The notes under the pieces: model-generated
The model's database searches: none
Told to the model about the DNA's origin: nothing
Seen by the model: the letters and a program-made list of their open reading frames with translations, nothing else
Origin: Escherichia phage vB_EcoM_JN03
Length of the DNA: 64,000 bases
Direction: 5' to 3' (one strand)
Sequence record: OR885871
Translations under genes and position numbers: made by a program
Part shown: in pieces, positions 35,544 to 56,013 of the stretch
Position numbering within the stretch: the stretch's first letter is position 1
How the letters are laid out: each line of letters starts with the position of its first letter

Positions 35544-35547
35544 ATAC
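35540..35547 (+). promoter_or_regulatory. Late-promoter-like box CTAAATAC upstream of uvsW
   Basis: About 25 nt upstream of the uvsW start. Confidence 0.4.
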
Positions 35548-49667: not shown

Positions 49668-49734
49668 ATCCCCAACGTTTGTTGGGGATTTTTACTTTTA
49701 GGGGTTTACTTCTATAAGGCAAATGCGTATTATT
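49668..49734 (+). promoter_or_regulatory. Terminator hairpin + sigma70-like early promoter cassette, copy 1
   Basis: Hairpin ccccaacgtttgttgggg, then GTTTAC - 18 nt - TATTAT; 53 bp identical to copy 2. Confidence 0.6.
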
Positions 49735-49782: not shown

Positions 49783-50013
49783 ATGTCTGCTGTATCACGC
49801 GTTGTTGACCTCACCCCATTTTGCCTGAACAATATTGCTAACCCTAAATTGGTATTGTTTAAAGATCCCTCTAATTTCTGCTGGCTGGCAAGTTGTGATA
49901 CCCACAACGGACGTCGTGCTGTTTGGGAGTTTCCCGCAACTGATGAAGGTAGAATTTCCGCTATAAGAAAATTAGAACTGGAAAATTCAAGCCGAGAAAT
50001 TAAACAGGCATAA
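49783..50013 (+). CDS. Hypothetical protein (76 aa)
   Basis: Sits between the two promoter cassettes. Confidence 0.45.
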   Translation: MSAVSRVVDLTPFCLNNIANPKLVLFKDPSNFCWLASCDTHNGRRAVWEFPATDEGRISAIRKLELENSSREIKQA

Positions 50014-50079
50014 CTTTTATTAAATCCCAACAAACGTTGGGGATTTTTACTTTTAGGGGTTTACTTCTATAAGGCAAAT
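50013..50079 (+). promoter_or_regulatory. Terminator hairpin + sigma70-like early promoter cassette, copy 2
   Basis: Hairpin cccaacaaacgttgggg (loop is the reverse complement of copy 1's loop), then an identical promoter. Confidence 0.6.
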
Positions 50080-50139
50080 GCGTATTATTCAATAACTGGC
50101 GAACGATGGGTTCACCAGGTTGAAAGGTAAGATTATATC

Positions 50140-50438: not shown

Positions 50439-50945
50439 ATGACCGATCAACAAATTCAAGATTTATTTTACCTCGTCCATGATAAGTCCCATATTATGCG
50501 CCCTGGCACTGTTTCTCCTGTCGTCCGTGATCTGGTGCAAGAATTACGCGAACCGCAGATGACCACACTTTATCGTGGGTTGCCTAAAGAGGACGTTGTG
50601 CGTTTAGAGATGATGTTTGAACGAGGCGACATGTTCCAGACATGGGATTCTTGTCTTAGCTTCAGTGAATTGAAGCATGTGGCCAAAAAATTTTCTAAAT
50701 CGTATGGAACCAGAGCTGTTGCTCGCATTTGTTACAAACATCGAAACGGACTCCCAGAGGGGCTTAATGTCTTTGGTTCTCTAGAAAAATTTGTGAACAA
50801 AGACGATGAATCAGAAATGGATATGCTGGACTTGGCGTCCATGGAGAAAGAATGGATATTCTGCCAGCCTCGCGTCTTCCCAGTTTCAAGAAAAATGGCA
50901 ACAGATGGGACGATGGTTTTTACCGTATCACTTATTACTCTATAA
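50439..50945 (+). CDS. Hypothetical protein (168 aa)
   Basis: Start context tatttgaaatgcaggaactataccATG, repeated before the next gene; begins MTDQ. Confidence 0.5.
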   Translation: MTDQQIQDLFYLVHDKSHIMRPGTVSPVVRDLVQELREPQMTTLYRGLPKEDVVRLEMMFERGDMFQTWDSCLSFSELKHVAKKFSKSYGTRAVARICYKHRNGLPEGLNVFGSLEKFVNKDDESEMDMLDLASMEKEWIFCQPRVFPVSRKMATDGTMVFTVSLITL

Positions 50946-51277: not shown

Positions 51278-51314
51278 ACTAACTAAGGGATAACCCTATA
51301 TCCCGAGGTGTGTC

Positions 51315-51764
51315 ATGTTCCTTACATCCTTTATTGACTGGATGAATATCATAAATGGTCTGAGGATCCCTGTTGGGAACCTCGGGCTTTCTCGTTCTTC
51401 TATGCCGCAAATCGATGCCGACAAACAAGAAGATTTTCACAAATATCTTGAAGACAACGGCGTGTCCATAGATGCTGCGCAAGTACCCATCAAAATGCTT
51501 CGTCTTACCCAGAACGAAATCAATAAAATGAAGGTCTGGAAGATTATGAAGCAGATCAGAAATAAGAAGCCCATGGGTCGAGTTTGGGTGTCTTCTGACA
51601 ATTACGTTGTTGACGGGTCTCACCGATTTGTCGCTGCGTTGAACATGGACGGCAAACAGCGCATGAAGGTCTACAAAGTTGATTTGCCAGCGATGGAATT
51701 TGTTAAACTCGCTAAACAGTTTCAGGGTGTGCGATACAGAACGGTCAGCGATACCCGTTTCTGA
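51315..51764 (+). CDS. ParB/Srx-like nuclease-domain protein
   Basis: Motif VVDGSHRFVAALN resembles the ParB N-terminal domain core (DGxHR...A). RBS gaggtg. Confidence 0.5.
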   Translation: MFLTSFIDWMNIINGLRIPVGNLGLSRSSMPQIDADKQEDFHKYLEDNGVSIDAAQVPIKMLRLTQNEINKMKVWKIMKQIRNKKPMGRVWVSSDNYVVDGSHRFVAALNMDGKQRMKVYKVDLPAMEFVKLAKQFQGVRYRTVSDTRF

Positions 51765-51843
51765 ATACGATAGTTTATTGAAACCCTTTACTCAACATGG
51801 TGACATCCCTATCATTTTATCCAATGAAATAAGGAGAATCACC

Positions 51844-52533
51844 ATGAAACGTTTAATCATCGGGGTTGTGCTGGCTGGTCTGGCACTTCCTGCCACCGCC
51901 AAGCTGAACTCCACAGGTGAAAAACTGTGGTCTGATCTTTCCTACTGTGCTGGGTTCTCCCAAGCTGTTGCTATAGACAAAACTGGTTCCATAGAGAACT
52001 TTGCTGAACTCTGGGCCACAGGTAACGTCACAGATGCCGTTGTAAACGCTGGTATTGAGTTTAATCGATATAAGCAAGGCGCGTTCAACCTGAAAGGATA
52101 TATGAACGACGAAGCATTTAACCGAGGAGGCATGGAGGCGAGCGATCTTATTATGACTGGTCGTATGGACACACAAGGACGAATGACCGTAAGACAGTGC
52201 CGTTCTCTCCCTTCTCCAGCATTACAAAAAGGTGTGCAGGTTGGCCGACGTCAGCTGGACCTCATCAATGATGGAAACCAATGTATCCGAGTATTTGAAT
52301 ATAGCGCTGATCAAGAATCTGATCGAAGACTGAAAAAGGAATGGCGGACTCGCGCCCTTGGCCTGAGAGCATGGCTGGTGGAAAATGATCATTATTATGA
52401 AGACCGTGTTCAGAATGGTTTGAAAGATCTTTCCACTAATTTGTCTGTCAATCTTGATGATCCCAGGCTTGCCCGTGAACTCAAGCAAACAAGAATTGAC
52501 TGTGATAATATGATGAAGGAGAACGAAAGATGA
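51844..52533 (+). CDS. Secreted (periplasmic) protein with signal peptide (230 aa)
   Basis: RBS aaggag. N-terminus MKRLIIGVVLAGLALPATA is a signal peptide with an A-x-A cleavage site. The ORF-track start at 51679 is upstream and unsupported. Confidence 0.55.
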   Translation: MKRLIIGVVLAGLALPATAKLNSTGEKLWSDLSYCAGFSQAVAIDKTGSIENFAELWATGNVTDAVVNAGIEFNRYKQGAFNLKGYMNDEAFNRGGMEASDLIMTGRMDTQGRMTVRQCRSLPSPALQKGVQVGRRQLDLINDGNQCIRVFEYSADQESDRRLKKEWRTRALGLRAWLVENDHYYEDRVQNGLKDLSTNLSVNLDDPRLARELKQTRIDCDNMMKENER

Positions 52534-52850
52534 AAATCAAAATCTTATTGTTATTCCTGTACACTTTCATGTCTTCCCAAGTATTGGCAGCTCCGGCCAG
52601 TAAGTTGAATATTTGTGCTGCTTGGTTGTCTACATATCAACAATTCCATCCGGATGATAAGGATACATCAATCCTTTTATCTGATTATGAAGGTGAATTG
52701 AAACGCCTTGATCTCTATAGTGTGGACCAGATAGAGAATGCGCTTGATTTACCCATGATGGAATCTGCTGCAGACAACAGCAAACAGACTATTAAAGATT
52801 TGACCATGTGCCGTGAAATTGCAACTAATTTCGTTGGAAATCAAAGATAG
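52530..52850 (+). CDS. Secreted protein with signal peptide (106 aa)
   Basis: MKIKILLLFLYTFMSSQVLAAPA signal peptide; start overlaps the upstream stop (ATGA). Confidence 0.5.
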   Translation: MKIKILLLFLYTFMSSQVLAAPASKLNICAAWLSTYQQFHPDDKDTSILLSDYEGELKRLDLYSVDQIENALDLPMMESAADNSKQTIKDLTMCREIATNFVGNQR

Positions 52851-52899
52851 TTTCAGGTTAAAATTTTATTCCCCATTGAACTGAAAGGTGTATTTCGTG

Positions 52900-53691
52900 A
52901 TGATCATTACCAAAAAGATCGCTGAGGCGATCGTTGAAAAGAATAAAATGTTCGCACCTAGCAAAGCAAAGGTTATTCTGATCCATGATGATGGTCGCGT
53001 GGTCTTCGCTGAAAAATTTGAGCAAGGGTGCGCTTTCTGGTTTGCAGACACTATGCGTGAAAGCAAGCTACAGGGCATCATTTACAAATTAACTCTGGTT
53101 GCCAAGCGCAACGATCAGGGTGACTGGGTTACGGTTTGTGATTTCAGCTCCAAGGTTGATACTCGACCAAAATCTCGCCAAGAGAGAATTCTGGAAGCTC
53201 AGGAAAAACTTGTTGCTGCTCGTACTTCACCAGTCATTAAGCCAGCAGTCATCTCCCCTTCTATTGATCTGCCGCCTGTCAGCCAAAAGGCTGTTGAGCA
53301 ATATGCAGAAAAACGAAAAGAAGAACCCGTGAAGTCTCCAGTTGAGAATAAAGAAGAATCTGAATTTATTTCAATCAGGCAGTTATGTCCGCAAGAAAGA
53401 CGATTTTCTTCACCAAATGATTTATTCGTGTCTTTCCGGTCTAATGGGAAGATTATATTGTGCAAAACCCTACGGGAACAATTGCAGTGGACTAACATCA
53501 ATATGATGGTGAGTCGGAACTTCAAACGATTCGCAATCGGTGAAGGTAAAGATTATCCTGTTAATAAGAGCGGAACATATGCAAATCGTCATATGTGCGA
53601 CAAATTGTCTTTCCCAAACGATTCCGGAACCATCCGCGTTCGTTTAGAATGGGATGAAAGTTTGAACATGTATGTCGGTGATATAAAATAA
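52900..53691 (+). CDS. Hypothetical protein (263 aa)
   Basis: No motif recognised; start ambiguous (52888 or 52900). Confidence 0.45.
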   Translation: MIITKKIAEAIVEKNKMFAPSKAKVILIHDDGRVVFAEKFEQGCAFWFADTMRESKLQGIIYKLTLVAKRNDQGDWVTVCDFSSKVDTRPKSRQERILEAQEKLVAARTSPVIKPAVISPSIDLPPVSQKAVEQYAEKRKEEPVKSPVENKEESEFISIRQLCPQERRFSSPNDLFVSFRSNGKIILCKTLREQLQWTNINMMVSRNFKRFAIGEGKDYPVNKSGTYANRHMCDKLSFPNDSGTIRVRLEWDESLNMYVGDIK

Positions 53692-53748
53692 TTCAATAAC
53701 ATTAGGGCGGTTATTATTAAACCGCCTTTTATTTGAGAGATCTATATT

Positions 53749-54418: not shown

Positions 54419-54706
54419 ATGTCCGGCGTATGGTGTGATGTATTGTTGGTAAGATTTTCAAACGGGATGGATAATCAGATCATTTCATTCTTTTATCCTG
54501 TTCCCTTTTCTTCTATGGGTCTGACTGTCAAGCGCGTTCTTGACATAGAAGAAAAACTCAACACGATGCCGTATATGGCGCGACCACACGTGCTGGGTTG
54601 TGAACTGTTAAACGAAATGATGATTGACGAGAATCTTGTTGAAACAATTATCACGCGTGAACAGATGAAAACCATACTGTCTCAGGGAGAACCCCATGTC
54701 GAATAA
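54419..54706 (+). CDS. Hypothetical protein (95 aa)
   Basis: ATG with RBS ggaggtg, directly after the upstream stop. Confidence 0.45.
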   Translation: MSGVWCDVLLVRFSNGMDNQIISFFYPVPFSSMGLTVKRVLDIEEKLNTMPYMARPHVLGCELLNEMMIDENLVETIITREQMKTILSQGEPHVE

Positions 54707-55016
54707 ACCGTTTGAACTTAAATTTCGCGTTTGGCATATTCCCCAGGTTCCTGGGATCGCTTTTCATGTTGAGGTTCCAACATTTGAAGAAGCGCAGCGC
54801 CTGAAGAATACTCTGGCTGATTACGACCTGTTTCAGTATAACAATAACATCAAGCCGGATTATTGTAATGCTTCCGGCGTTCAAATATACCAACATGATC
54901 TGACTGAAGAAGATCTAAATGATATGGGTCTGGATGATCGTTGGGTTGATATCGAAGATATTGACGAACTCAACGATTATTTTGATCATCTGCGTAGCAC
55001 AGGGTGGGAAATATGA
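54696..55016 (+). CDS. Small acidic protein (106 aa)
   Basis: C-terminal half is strongly acidic (EEDLNDMGLDDRWVDIEDIDELNDYFDHL). Confidence 0.45.
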   Translation: MSNKPFELKFRVWHIPQVPGIAFHVEVPTFEEAQRLKNTLADYDLFQYNNNIKPDYCNASGVQIYQHDLTEEDLNDMGLDDRWVDIEDIDELNDYFDHLRSTGWEI

Positions 55017-55222
55017 TCGGGTTAATCCGTTATCTGTTCATATTCGTAATTTCAACATTCATTTTATTTTTCTTTTTCAAATACTTGAAAGAGACTAAAA
55101 TCTACCGAAGTAAACGTTGGCGTAAACGGGTGAGGGTAACTTTCCTGCTGCTGATTTCTTCGGTTACAATAACTGCACTCACATTGGGTGCTTATATTTA
55201 CATTTTTGAAGGAGTACATTGA
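55004..55222 (+). CDS. Small two-TM membrane protein (72 aa)
   Basis: Two hydrophobic helices separated by a basic loop (KRWRKRVR); stop overlaps the start of the SPFH gene. Confidence 0.5.
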   Translation: MGNMIGLIRYLFIFVISTFILFFFFKYLKETKIYRSKRWRKRVRVTFLLLISSVTITALTLGAYIYIFEGVH

Positions 55223-56013
55223 TGTTCAAGAAACTGGTATTTGGCGCAATTATGGTCCTAGCAGCAAGCATTCTTTCGGGCTGCGGCGGTGTTATCGATG
55301 AAGGAAACGTCGGTGTTCGAACCCAATGGGGTGAAGTGGACATGAACCCTGTAACCGCAGGTATCTACACCAGTTTCGTTTCAAGTGTAGATGTCTATAC
55401 GACTAAAGAAGCCGTCGTGAGTCTGACGAAAATGACGCCAAAGGCCAAAGACAACCTGACCTTGGAAGATCTGGATGTGGATGTTTATTACACACCGAAC
55501 GTCGCAAAGGTTCCGTGGTTCCATACCAAATTTGCAGGTCAGAGCGCTGAACTCGGTGACGGCACGATAGCGGTGGGATTCAACCTGGTTAAAACCGCCG
55601 CAGCATCCTCAACGATGGACGCCGTTTCCTCTTTGGATTCTATGACAATTCACACCCAACGGGCTGAGTTAGAAAAGATGATCAAGGAACGCACCCAGCA
55701 GCAATTGGAAACTGCTGCGCCTGGCATGTTCACAATCACACGTGTGTTGGTGAAAAAGGCGCTGACAGATCCTTCGATTGAGCAATCTATCCGTGATAAT
55801 GTCATGGCCGACAAACGTTTGGATACAGCAAGAAAGAACGTTGAAATTCGCGACCAAGAAGCCAGGGCGAATCAGAAACTGACGACATCTCTGACACCTG
55901 AATATTTACAACACGAATATAACATGGTGTTGCAATCTTGCGCCAACAGCGGGAAATGTACTCTGATTGTTGATGGTTCTGGCTCAAGTAAAATGCTAAA
56001 CGTCGGCAAATAA
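55222..56013 (+). CDS. SPFH/band-7 (stomatin/prohibitin-like) domain lipoprotein
   Basis: Lipoprotein signal with lipobox LSGC. VIDEGNVGVRTQWGEV start resembles SPFH domain proteins, followed by a coiled-coil-like region. Confidence 0.55.
   Translation: MFKKLVFGAIMVLAASILSGCGGVIDEGNVGVRTQWGEVDMNPVTAGIYTSFVSSVDVYTTKEAVVSLTKMTPKAKDNLTLEDLDVDVYYTPNVAKVPWFHTKFAGQSAELGDGTIAVGFNLVKTAAASSTMDAVSSLDSMTIHTQRAELEKMIKERTQQQLETAAPGMFTITRVLVKKALTDPSIEQSIRDNVMADKRLDTARKNVEIRDQEARANQKLTTSLTPEYLQHEYNMVLQSCANSGKCTLIVDGSGSSKMLNVGK

What the first reader, a model, noticed from the sequence alone, without database searches (positions are those of the whole stretch)
51844..52850. Two consecutive signal-peptide proteins expressed from the early region
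Both ORFs start with classical Sec signal peptides and are translationally linked (ATGA overlap). Early-expressed periplasmic phage proteins are typical of superinfection exclusion (T4 Imm/Sp-like logic), lysis inhibition, or inhibition of periplasmic host enzymes. Neither matches a family I can name.
Basis: inference. Interest (0 to 1): 0.45.

Follow-up and report, generated by a model that had tools for sequence, protein, structure and literature searches.

The report
Secreted phage protein pair mislabelled spanin
Two overlapping genes of a Salmonella phage encode small proteins that are almost certainly exported to the space between the host's two membranes; public databases call them "spanins" (lysis proteins), but they lack the membrane anchors that define spanins, so their real job (most likely protecting or controlling the infected cell's envelope) is still unknown.

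Summary
The window is Salmonella phage SPTD1 (Kuttervirus, Ackermannviridae). ORF A (51844-52533, 229 aa) and ORF B (52530-52850, 106 aa) overlap by ATGA. Each has its own AAGGAG ribosome-binding site and a short N-terminal hydrophobic segment ending in a conserved small-x-Ala signal-peptidase-I site.

The pair is a core gene pair found only in Ackermannviridae: 281 phage records, and no relatives elsewhere in billions of proteins. It keeps its stop/start overlap across at least five genera.

I traced that label to phage Marshall in the 2018 spanin census. There ORF B happens to carry a lipobox Cys inside its signal peptide. Only 8 of 53 ORF B proteins have that Cys, and SPTD1's does not. ORF A has no lipobox (0/36), a hydrophobic core of only about 12 residues, an invariant A-x-A site and no coiled coil. 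The spanin label therefore fails its defining tests.

ORF B folds confidently into a compact helical bundle with no informative structural match. It is not related to T4 Spackle or RI.

Expression from a host-type (non-late) promoter is likely but inferred. The function is unknown; periplasmic exclusion or envelope protection is the best guess. Interest is moderate.

The parts
51787..51815 (+). Promoter-like site TTTACT-17 nt-TATCAT, 29 nt upstream of the ORF A start codon
   Evidence: Found by the consensus scan. The hexamers are conserved while the spacer varies among Kuttervirus and Limestonevirus. A -10-like TATCAT, TATGAT or TACTAT is kept at the same distance in phiMAM1, Bue1 and L010. 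This hexamer pair occurs 6 times in the genome against 1.7+-1.1 in simulations, and 5 of 6 copies lie 29-78 nt upstream of an ATG with a ribosome-binding site. Function is inferred, not shown.
51831..51836 (+). Ribosome-binding site AAGGAG of ORF A
   Evidence: Read directly from the sequence. It is also annotated as an RBS in Marshall and Maynard.
51844..51900 (+). ORF A signal peptide (residues 1-19, MKRLIIGVVLAGLALPATA), with predicted signal-peptidase-I cleavage after ATA
   Evidence: Ala at -3 and -1 is invariant in 21/21 homologues. The uncharged stretch is only 16 residues with a 12-residue core. No lipobox in 0/36.
51901..52239 (+). ORF A N-terminal domain (residues 20-132), the part shared by all lineages; contains Cys35 and Cys119
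   Evidence: phiMAM1 (126 aa) and Bue1 (165 aa) encode only this domain. It matches phrog_22078 over residues 1-129. The AlphaFold model is unreliable here, with pLDDT below 50.
52240..52533 (+). ORF A C-terminal helical domain (residues 133-229, Cys147 and Cys220) plus stop codon; a lineage-specific addition
   Evidence: Helices at 140-157, 161-180 and 207-228, with pLDDT 65-89. The domain is absent from phiMAM1 and Bue1. It is lost by frameshift in phage 38 (P0067).
52516..52521 (+). Ribosome-binding site AAGGAG of ORF B, inside the end of ORF A
   Evidence: Read directly from the sequence.
52530..52533 (+). ATGA stop/start overlap (translational coupling)
   Evidence: Seen. A 4-nt or 1-nt overlap is kept in Marshall, Maynard, PP35, phiMAM1, Bue1, L009 and L010.
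52530..52589 (+). ORF B signal peptide (residues 1-20, MKIKILLLFLYTFMSSQVLA), with predicted cleavage VLA|AP; contains no Cys
   Evidence: Position -1 is Ala in 28/28, -3 is small in 28/28 and +2 is Pro in 27/28. The segment is otherwise hypervariable. No lipobox is present in this phage.
52590..52850 (+). ORF B mature domain (residues 21-106, 9.7 kDa, pI 4.5) plus stop codon; a compact five-helix bundle with invariant Cys29 and Cys94 and the motif C-x-A-W-x-x-x-Y-x-x-x-H
   Evidence: AlphaFold mean pLDDT is 86, and above 90 over the mature part. Invariant residues come from the diverse alignment.
52900..53691 (+). Next gene downstream (263 aa, phrog_3828, no export signal); possibly co-transcribed; not conserved next to the pair in phiMAM1 or Bue1
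53704..53728 (+). Terminator-like hairpin (9-bp stem followed by a T-run); the first good terminator after the pair

Best explanation
ORF A and ORF B are two Sec-exported proteins whose signal peptides are cleaved by signal peptidase I. They are soluble in the periplasm and stabilised by disulfide bonds.

They are made in a fixed ratio from a translationally coupled gene pair. The pair is transcribed by host-type RNA polymerase, so expression is early or middle, not late. They are not a spanin.

The most likely role is to act together in the periplasm of the infected cell as an envelope-protection or superinfection-exclusion module. In that model they bind a component specific to Ackermannviridae that arrives in, or acts from, the periplasm. 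One example is the CHAP peptidoglycan hydrolase on the tail spike of a second infecting phage. This is the logic of T4 Spackle, carried out by unrelated proteins.

What is shown: gene structure, coupling, conservation, signal-peptide features, absence of membrane anchors, and a compact helical fold for ORF B.

What is inferred: periplasmic location and cleavage (high confidence, about 0.85); not a canonical spanin (about 0.8); non-late expression (about 0.65); physical A-B complex (about 0.5); exclusion or envelope-protection function (about 0.3-0.35).
For: **Export and cleavage.**
- Both proteins have a basic n-region, a short hydrophobic core and an invariant small-x-Ala site. The rest of the segment is hypervariable, as expected for a removed signal peptide.
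- The mature parts carry conserved Cys pairs: ORF A has Cys35/119/147/220 and ORF B has Cys29/94. This is typical of periplasmic proteins.

**No membrane anchor.**
- Neither mature protein has a further hydrophobic segment.
- ORF B is a compact bundle with pLDDT above 90.

**Coupling.** The stop/start overlap is kept in every lineage.

**Timing.**
- A conserved promoter-like site lies upstream.
- No CTAAATA late-promoter motif occurs between window positions 35547 and 64000, and the record's curators annotate no late promoter here.

**Family-specific partner.** Both proteins are confined to Ackermannviridae: 10 hits among 1.8 billion representatives, 50 profile hits all on contigs of about 150-164 kb, and 22 of 22 viral loci on 152-164 kb contigs.

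**Neighbourhood.** Within 3.5 kb lie a P22 gp17-type exclusion-related gene, a 2-TM peptide and an SPFH lipoprotein.

**Layout parallel with T4 Spackle.** Sp is a 97-aa precursor with Cys29 and Cys81; ORF B is a 106-aa precursor with Cys29 and Cys94. This is a lead only.
Against: - There is no experimental datum for any member of the family.
- ORF B shows no sequence or fold similarity to Spackle, RI or any exclusion protein or inhibitor.
- The ORF A model is unreliable, with mean pLDDT 45.
- No multimer prediction could be run, so an A-B complex rests only on the gene coupling.
- The signal-peptide calls are rule-based, not from SignalP, LipoP or DeepTMHMM.
- Charges do not suggest an obvious electrostatic pair: ORF A is about neutral and ORF B is -6.
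- A sub-lineage (Marshall, Maynard) has a real-looking lipobox in ORF B, so at least there the protein may be tethered to the outer membrane.
Confidence: 0.35

Rival explanations
1. The public annotation is right in spirit. The pair is the outer-membrane-disruption (spanin-type) system of Ackermannviridae, either canonical in some lineages or a non-canonical version that works without the usual anchors.
For: - Two adjacent, overlapping genes for envelope proteins is the 'separated/overlapped' spanin architecture. The 2018 census files the Marshall pair this way.
- In the Marshall/Maynard sub-lineage, ORF B has a canonical lipobox, L-I-A-G-C15.
- A six-frame screen of the whole SPTD1 genome finds no other plausible o-spanin or u-spanin. 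The census lists nine or more Ackermannviridae as spanin-less, so the function is unassigned.
- T4 spanin genes also sit away from the holin and endolysin genes.
- The endolysin is a cytoplasmic type, so the phage needs a full lysis pathway.
Against: - The lipobox is absent in 45 of 53 ORF B proteins, including SPTD1 and all the most divergent genera. The signal-peptidase-I site is universal, even in lipobox-bearing members.
- ORF A has 0/36 lipoboxes, a 12-residue hydrophobic core, an invariant A-x-A site and no other hydrophobic segment.
- The census's own tables give the Marshall 'i-spanin' 0 coiled-coil segments and 35% helix. They flag the pair as the longest in the data set and as singleton families.
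- ORF B is a compact globular bundle, not an extended or Pro-rich chain; its mature part has only 3 Pro.
- ORF A is only about 106 residues when mature in phiMAM1.
- The same census lists Maynard as spanin-less, although its two proteins are identical to Marshall's.
- The promoter is not of the late type.
Confidence: 0.13
2. The pair controls lysis timing (antiholin-like, in the manner of T4 RI). In this model the periplasmic proteins bind the periplasmic domain of the still unidentified holin and delay lysis, perhaps in response to superinfection.
For: - T4 RI is also a small, helical, early, periplasmic protein (established knowledge; sequence).
- The phage encodes rIIA and rIIB.
- The holin of this family is unknown, and several type-II membrane proteins with periplasmic domains exist in the genome, such as the 189-aa ORF266.
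- Restriction to the family fits a phage-encoded partner.
Against: - There is no similarity to RI by sequence or fold.
- RI uses an uncleaved signal-anchor-release domain, whereas these proteins have strong cleavage sites.
- No T-type holin was detected, and ORF266 is labelled 'virion structural protein' in PHROGs.
- Lysis inhibition has not been reported for these phages in the papers searched.
Confidence: 0.12
3. The pair targets a conserved host periplasmic or outer-membrane component. Possible roles are receptor masking (as with T5 Llp or Cor), inhibition of host peptidoglycan or envelope enzymes or proteases, or interference with polysaccharide export. These would condition the envelope or stop progeny being trapped on debris.
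For: - The mature domains are strongly conserved (about 65-85% identity) across phages of Salmonella, Escherichia, Klebsiella, Dickeya, Serratia and Enterobacter, which share periplasmic machinery.
- A viable sub-lineage with an outer-membrane lipoprotein form of ORF B suggests it can work tethered at the outer membrane.
Against: - No lysozyme-inhibitor or other inhibitor family matches.
- There are no bacterial homologues at all.
- Strict restriction to one phage family argues somewhat for a phage-specific rather than a host target.
Confidence: 0.2

Closest known systems
Two-component spanins (lambda Rz/Rz1; T4 PseT.3/PseT.2), the label currently attached to this pair in GenBank, RefSeq and PHROG 3843
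   Same: - Two adjacent, translationally coupled genes.
- Both products are directed to the envelope by N-terminal signals.
- Periplasmic cysteines are present.
- In one sub-lineage (Marshall, Maynard) the second protein has a lipobox.
   Different: - In SPTD1 and in 45 of 53 homologues the second protein has no lipobox Cys.
- The first protein has a cleavable signal peptide instead of a transmembrane anchor, and no coiled coil.
- The second protein is a compact helical bundle.
- Combined periplasmic length is about 300 residues, an outlier in the census.
- The promoter is not of the late type.
T4 Spackle (Sp, gp61.3), an early periplasmic inhibitor of the tail-spike lysozyme of superinfecting phage
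   Same: - A small precursor of about 100 aa with a Sec signal peptide.
- An all-helical mature protein of about 9 kDa.
- One Cys near each end (Sp 29/81; ORF B 29/94).
- An early-type gene in a T4-like gene set.
   Different: - No sequence similarity once signal peptides are removed: hhalign score 9.9, and 82 of 200 shuffles score at least as high.
- The SPTD1 spike carries a CHAP domain, not a lysozyme.
- Here there are two coupled proteins, not one.
T4 RI antiholin
   Same: A small, helical, periplasmic, early protein of a large lytic myovirus that also encodes rIIA and rIIB.
   Different: - No sequence or fold similarity.
- RI has a non-cleaved signal-anchor-release domain.
- No T-type holin has been identified in this phage.
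T5 Llp and Cor-type receptor-blocking lipoproteins
   Same: Early phage envelope proteins that act from the periplasmic side of the outer membrane. The Marshall-type ORF B would be an outer-membrane lipoprotein.
   Different: - Most family members, including SPTD1, are not lipoproteins.
- No homology was found in Pfam or PHROGs; this was not tested directly against Llp or Cor sequences.
- The secondary receptor of these phages is unknown.

Membership tests
Two-component spanin: o-spanin subunit | Outer-membrane lipoprotein signal: lipobox [LVI][ASTVI][GAS]C directly after the hydrophobic segment | tested here: not met
   ORF B of SPTD1 has no Cys in residues 1-28. Its invariant Cys29 lies 9 residues after the A-x-A site, behind charged or polar residues, and is preceded by L-N-[I/M/T/K/V/L]. 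A strict lipobox is present in only 8 of 53 family members.
Two-component spanin: i-spanin subunit | Type II inner-membrane protein with an uncleaved N-terminal transmembrane helix | tested here: not met
   The ORF A uncharged stretch is 16 residues (core 12), followed by Pro and an invariant A-x-A|K. This assessment is rule-based; SignalP and DeepTMHMM were not available.
Two-component spanin: i-spanin subunit | Periplasmic domain dominated by long or coiled-coil helices able to span the periplasm | tested here: inconclusive
   The census supplement gives the Marshall orthologue 0 coiled-coil segments and 35% helix. The AlphaFold model is unreliable for residues 1-140 and shows short helices in 140-229.
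Two-component spanin | Adjacent, overlapping or embedded gene pair | tested here: met
   The ATGA overlap at 52530-52533 is conserved. This feature is not specific to spanins.
Two-component spanin | Required for outer-membrane disruption; complements lambda Rz/Rz1 amber mutants | not testable with these tools
   This needs genetics. No published test was found.
T4 Spackle (Sp) | Sequence homology to Sp | tested here: not met
   Full-length hhalign gave probability 12.7%, driven by the signal peptides. Mature versus mature scored 9.9, no better than shuffles.
T4 Spackle (Sp) | Spackle fold | tested here: not met
T4 Spackle (Sp) | Target: lysozyme domain of the gp5 tail spike | tested here: not met
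   The SPTD1 gp5 homologue has Gp5_OB and CHAP domains and no lysozyme domain.
T4 RI antiholin | Sequence or fold homology to RI; signal-anchor-release domain | tested here: not met
   hhalign probability is 0.3% or less. No RI structure appears in the fold searches. Strong cleavage sites are present instead of a SAR domain.
Periplasmic lysozyme inhibitors (Ivy, MliC/PliC, PliI, PliG) | Match to the family profile | tested here: not met
   Neither protein matches any Pfam family at E<=1. ORF B is all-helical, whereas these inhibitor families are mostly beta-rich (my own knowledge).
PulS/OutS pilotin-like periplasmic helical proteins | Fold similarity | tested here: inconclusive

The most novel reading that the evidence does not exclude
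Ackermannviridae have no canonical spanin in their genomes and have been listed as 'spanin-less' since 2018. This soluble, family-specific periplasmic pair could be their missing outer-membrane-disruption or lysis-completion system. It would work without an inner-membrane anchor and usually without a lipid anchor, which would be a third mechanism beside spanins and the phiKT-type cationic peptide.
Probability: 0.07. Interest if true: 0.8.

Novelty: new member of a known kind. Interest (0 to 1): 0.4.

Why it matters
**Annotation.** A label that fails its own defining criteria ('i-spanin', 'o-spanin', 'Rz-like spanin', PHROG 3843) has spread to many of the 281 Ackermannviridae genomes. These phages are widely used for Salmonella and E. 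coli biocontrol and as engineered reporter phages. The label hides two facts: the family still has no identified outer-membrane-disruption system, and it carries a conserved secreted protein pair of unknown function.

**Biology.** Early periplasmic phage proteins are few, and each one characterised so far (Spackle, RI, Llp) revealed a distinct mechanism of exclusion or lysis control. A core pair that is restricted to one family and translationally coupled is a well-defined, testable candidate for another.

**Tractability.** SPTD1 and CBA120 can already be engineered genetically (PMC9965104).

Tried and rejected
1. **ORF A's C-terminal domain as a duplicate of ORF B.** I saw a by-eye resemblance ('YYEDRVQNGLKDL' against 'YSVDQIENALDLP', with Cys near both ends). 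hhalign gives probability 0.4%. Rejected.
2. **Homology of ORF B to T4 Spackle.** The first hhalign hit (P=0.002) came from signal-peptide composition. It disappears when only mature domains are compared and a shuffle control is used.
4. **Structure of ORF A.** Mean pLDDT was 45, too poor for a fold search. Both prediction jobs are now used.
5. **Remote homologues.** An exhaustive profile search for ORF A found 10 hits. A profile search for ORF B found 50, all in the same phage family. Viral contig scans and PDB sequence profiles added nothing. There are no hits in Pfam, NCBIfam or PADLOC.
6. **Looking for a 'real' spanin elsewhere in SPTD1.** Only three lipobox ORFs turn up in six frames, and none is spanin-like. 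The type-II membrane protein ORF266 is labelled a virion protein in PHROGs.
7. **Literature.** I found no transcriptome for any Ackermannviridae phage and no functional study of these genes.
8. **Charge complementarity between ORF A and ORF B.** Not evident.

Full report
**Identity of the window and the observation.** The stretch 51300-53700 is 100% identical to Salmonella phage SPTD1 (OP991882.2), a 157.5-kb Kuttervirus of the family Ackermannviridae. The window's + strand is the record's - strand. ORF A (51844-52533, 229 aa) and ORF B (52530-52850, 106 aa) are present exactly as described. Each is preceded by AAGGAG, and the two overlap by ATGA. SPTD1's curators annotate the same two genes as hypothetical proteins ORF088 and ORF090.

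**Signal peptides.** SignalP was not available, so I used rules together with conservation.
- ORF A begins MKRLIIGVVLAGLALPATA|KLN. Two basic residues are followed by a 12-residue hydrophobic core, then Pro, then A-x-A.
- In 21 homologues, Ala at -3 and at -1 is invariant.
- ORF B begins MKIKILLLFLYTFMSSQVLA|AP. In 28 homologues the hydrophobic part varies freely in sequence and length.
- In those same homologues, -1 is Ala in 28/28, -3 is V/A/S/T in 28/28 and +2 is Pro in 27/28.
- Orthologues at 30-50% identity keep the same design. These include Serratia phiMAM1, Erwinia Bue1, two metagenomic phages and 13 further proteins.
- Neither mature protein has another hydrophobic segment.
- The mature parts carry invariant cysteines: four in ORF A (35, 119, 147, 220) and two in ORF B (29, 94). 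This fits oxidised periplasmic proteins.

**Distribution.**
- The pair occurs in 281 phage records, all of about 150-164 kb.
- An exhaustive profile search for ORF A found only 10 proteins among 1.8 billion cluster representatives.
- A profile search for ORF B found 50 proteins with a sharp cut-off, the weakest at E = 1e-22.
- All 22 viral-contig loci lie on 152-164 kb contigs.
- The genes are listed in the published core genome of Vi01-like phages.
- The stop/start overlap is kept everywhere.
- ORF A has two parts. The N-terminal domain (about residues 20-132) is universal. The C-terminal helical domain is missing in phiMAM1 (126 aa) and Bue1 (165 aa), and is frameshifted away in Salmonella phage 38.

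**The spanin label and why it fails.**
- Many records call ORF A 'i-spanin' and ORF B 'o-spanin', 'Rz-like spanin' or 'lipoprotein'. PHROG 3843, which contains ORF B, is named 'Rz-like spanin'.
- The notes in those records point to phages Marshall and Maynard.
- In the 2018 spanin census (PMC6139136), the Marshall pair is a 'separated' two-component spanin, and each subunit forms a singleton family.
- The census gives the pair the longest combined periplasmic length in the data set (300 residues), zero predicted coiled coils and 35% helix for the 'i-spanin'.
- Its 'o-spanin' is 108 aa with a 94-residue periplasmic part, so the lipid-modified Cys was taken to be residue 15.
- Marshall ORF B does read MKCKILLLMVLIAGC15VNA|AP.
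- That Cys is not a family feature. A strict lipobox occurs in 8 of 53 distinct ORF B proteins: seven of the Marshall type plus one other. It is absent from SPTD1 and from all divergent genera.
- The lipobox-bearing proteins still keep the A-x-A|x-P site three residues further on. The closest non-lipobox relative differs by Ser for Cys at that position (P0005).
- ORF A has no lipobox in 0/36 and lacks a transmembrane-length segment.
- The same census lists Vi01, SFP10, SJ2, SJ3, CBA120, ECML-4, PhaxI, AG3 and Dickeya RC-2014 as spanin-less. It also lists Maynard as spanin-less, although Maynard's two proteins are identical to Marshall's.
- The label therefore rests on a lineage-specific residue and has been propagated by similarity.
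- My six-frame lipobox screen of the whole SPTD1 genome found only three candidates: a 38-aa hydrophobic peptide, the 264-aa SPFH lipoprotein, and a probably spurious antisense ORF. SPTD1 is therefore spanin-less by the canonical criteria.

**Structure.**
- ORF B gives a confident AlphaFold model, with mean pLDDT 86 and above 90 for residues 21-106. It has five helices, at 25-39, 44-59, 65-71, 75-81 and 85-105.
- Foldseek against the PDB finds nothing with E<3.6.
- BFVD returns only the phiEa2809 orthologue, with TM 0.71 at 31% identity. This shows that the fold is conserved within the family.
- ORF A modelled poorly, with mean pLDDT 45. Only residues 140-229 are moderately confident, and they are helical.
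- A suspected relationship between ORF A's C-terminal domain and ORF B was not supported.

**Comparison with known periplasmic phage proteins.**
- I took T4 Sp and RI directly from the T4 record.
- ORF B against full-length Sp gave a weak hhalign hit, but it is carried by the signal peptides.
- With mature domains only, the score is no better than for shuffled sequences. RI gives nothing.
- Pfam, NCBIfam and PADLOC give no hit at E<=1.
- The SPTD1 gp5-like spike has a CHAP domain rather than a lysozyme.
- The endolysin is a cytoplasmic PG_binding_1 + muramidase protein.

**Timing of expression (inferred).**
- TTTACT-17-TATCAT sits 29 nt upstream of the ORF A start codon.
- Its hexamers are conserved while the spacer varies among genera. 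The most divergent phages keep a TATCAT, TATGAT or TACTAT at the same distance.
- The hexamer pair occurs 6 times in the genome, against 1.7+-1.1 in simulated genomes. Five of the six copies lie just upstream of an ATG with a ribosome-binding site.
- Two of those copies are part of an exact 54-nt stem-loop-plus-promoter repeat nearby.
- The Kuttervirus late promoter annotated in the SPTD1 record is CTAAATA. None occurs between window 35547 and 64000, and no late promoter is annotated in this 24-kb stretch.
- The first good terminator is at 53704-53728, after the next gene.
- No transcriptome for any Ackermannviridae phage was found.

**Interpretation.**
- The secure conclusion is structural. 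This is a conserved, coupled pair of exported, soluble, disulfide-containing periplasmic proteins, specific to Ackermannviridae, and not a canonical spanin.
- For function I favour a periplasmic exclusion or envelope-protection role directed at a family-specific component. Four points support this.
  - The pair is strictly restricted to one phage family.
  - The promoter is not of the late type.
  - Neighbouring genes are exclusion- or envelope-related: a gp17-like gene (PF17420), a 2-TM peptide and an SPFH lipoprotein.
  - ORF B shares its overall layout with Spackle.
- This functional reading is a low-confidence inference (about 0.3-0.35).
- The rivals are a non-canonical outer-membrane-disruption role, lysis-timing control, and action on a conserved host envelope component. 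The Marshall-type lipoprotein form shows that ORF B tolerates outer-membrane tethering. That is compatible with action at the outer membrane and keeps the first and last rivals alive.

**Verdict.** The main added value is showing that the widespread spanin annotation does not pass its defining tests. That leaves two open questions for this phage family: what the pair does, and how these phages breach the outer membrane.

Noticed in passing
window 49681-49734 and 50036-50089: An exact 54-nt direct repeat, made of a stem-loop (TCCCAACAAACGTTGGGG) followed by TTTACT-17-TATTAT. The two copies bracket a small 76-aa gene (49783-50013). It resembles the promoter-early stem-loop cassettes that flank shuffled small genes in T4-like phages.
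   Followed up: partly
window 50439-50945: SPTD1 has a 168-aa gene here that matches the C-terminal part of an Alt-like 'RNA polymerase ADP-ribosylase' PHROG (phrog_832). Close relatives (dinky, LPST94, ST-W77) have denV at this position. The two proteins show no BLASTP similarity, so this is a gene replacement in an otherwise collinear region.
   Followed up: partly
window 54696-56013: A tight cluster of envelope-related genes with overlapping ends: a P22 gp17-type 'superinfection exclusion' protein (PF17420, 54696-55016), a 69-72 aa two-TM peptide (55004/55013-55222), and a Band_7/SPFH lipoprotein with a canonical LSGC lipobox (55219-56013). The last is the only convincing lipoprotein in the genome.
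   Followed up: partly
window 51315-51764: The gene just upstream of the pair (149 aa) matches only an internal part (positions 316-467) of a 740-position PHROG profile (phrog_2859). It also matches ParB-like proteins weakly. Relatives annotate it as a virion structural protein or a 'PLxRFG domain' protein.
   Followed up: no
L004 (Marshall) 1697-2709 and L008 (Maynard) 1815-2827: Marshall and Maynard encode identical ORF A and ORF B proteins. The 2018 spanin census nevertheless lists Marshall as having a two-component spanin and Maynard as spanin-less.
   Followed up: yes
L011 48346-49971 (SPTD1 record, outside the window): The gp5-like baseplate central spike carries a CHAP peptidase domain plus the Gp5 OB domain. 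It does not carry the lysozyme domain of T4 gp5.
   Followed up: partly
L036 26552-26758 and L011 30872-30988 (SPTD1 record, outside the window): Two small ORFs with membrane-active features. One is 68 aa, with a signal-like N-terminus and a very cationic tail (KKAKTHGKNKKKRRK). The other is a 38-aa hydrophobic peptide ending in FKRKR. Both are possible candidates for a non-spanin outer-membrane-disruption factor in this spanin-less phage.
   Followed up: no
P0067 (Salmonella phage 38) and P0037 (Escherichia phage A221): Natural variants of the pair. In phage 38, ORF A is frameshifted after about residue 130, so it loses the C-terminal domain. In A221, ORF B is annotated as 78 aa without its signal peptide. 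This suggests that parts of the pair are dispensable in the laboratory, or that these are sequencing or annotation errors.
   Followed up: no
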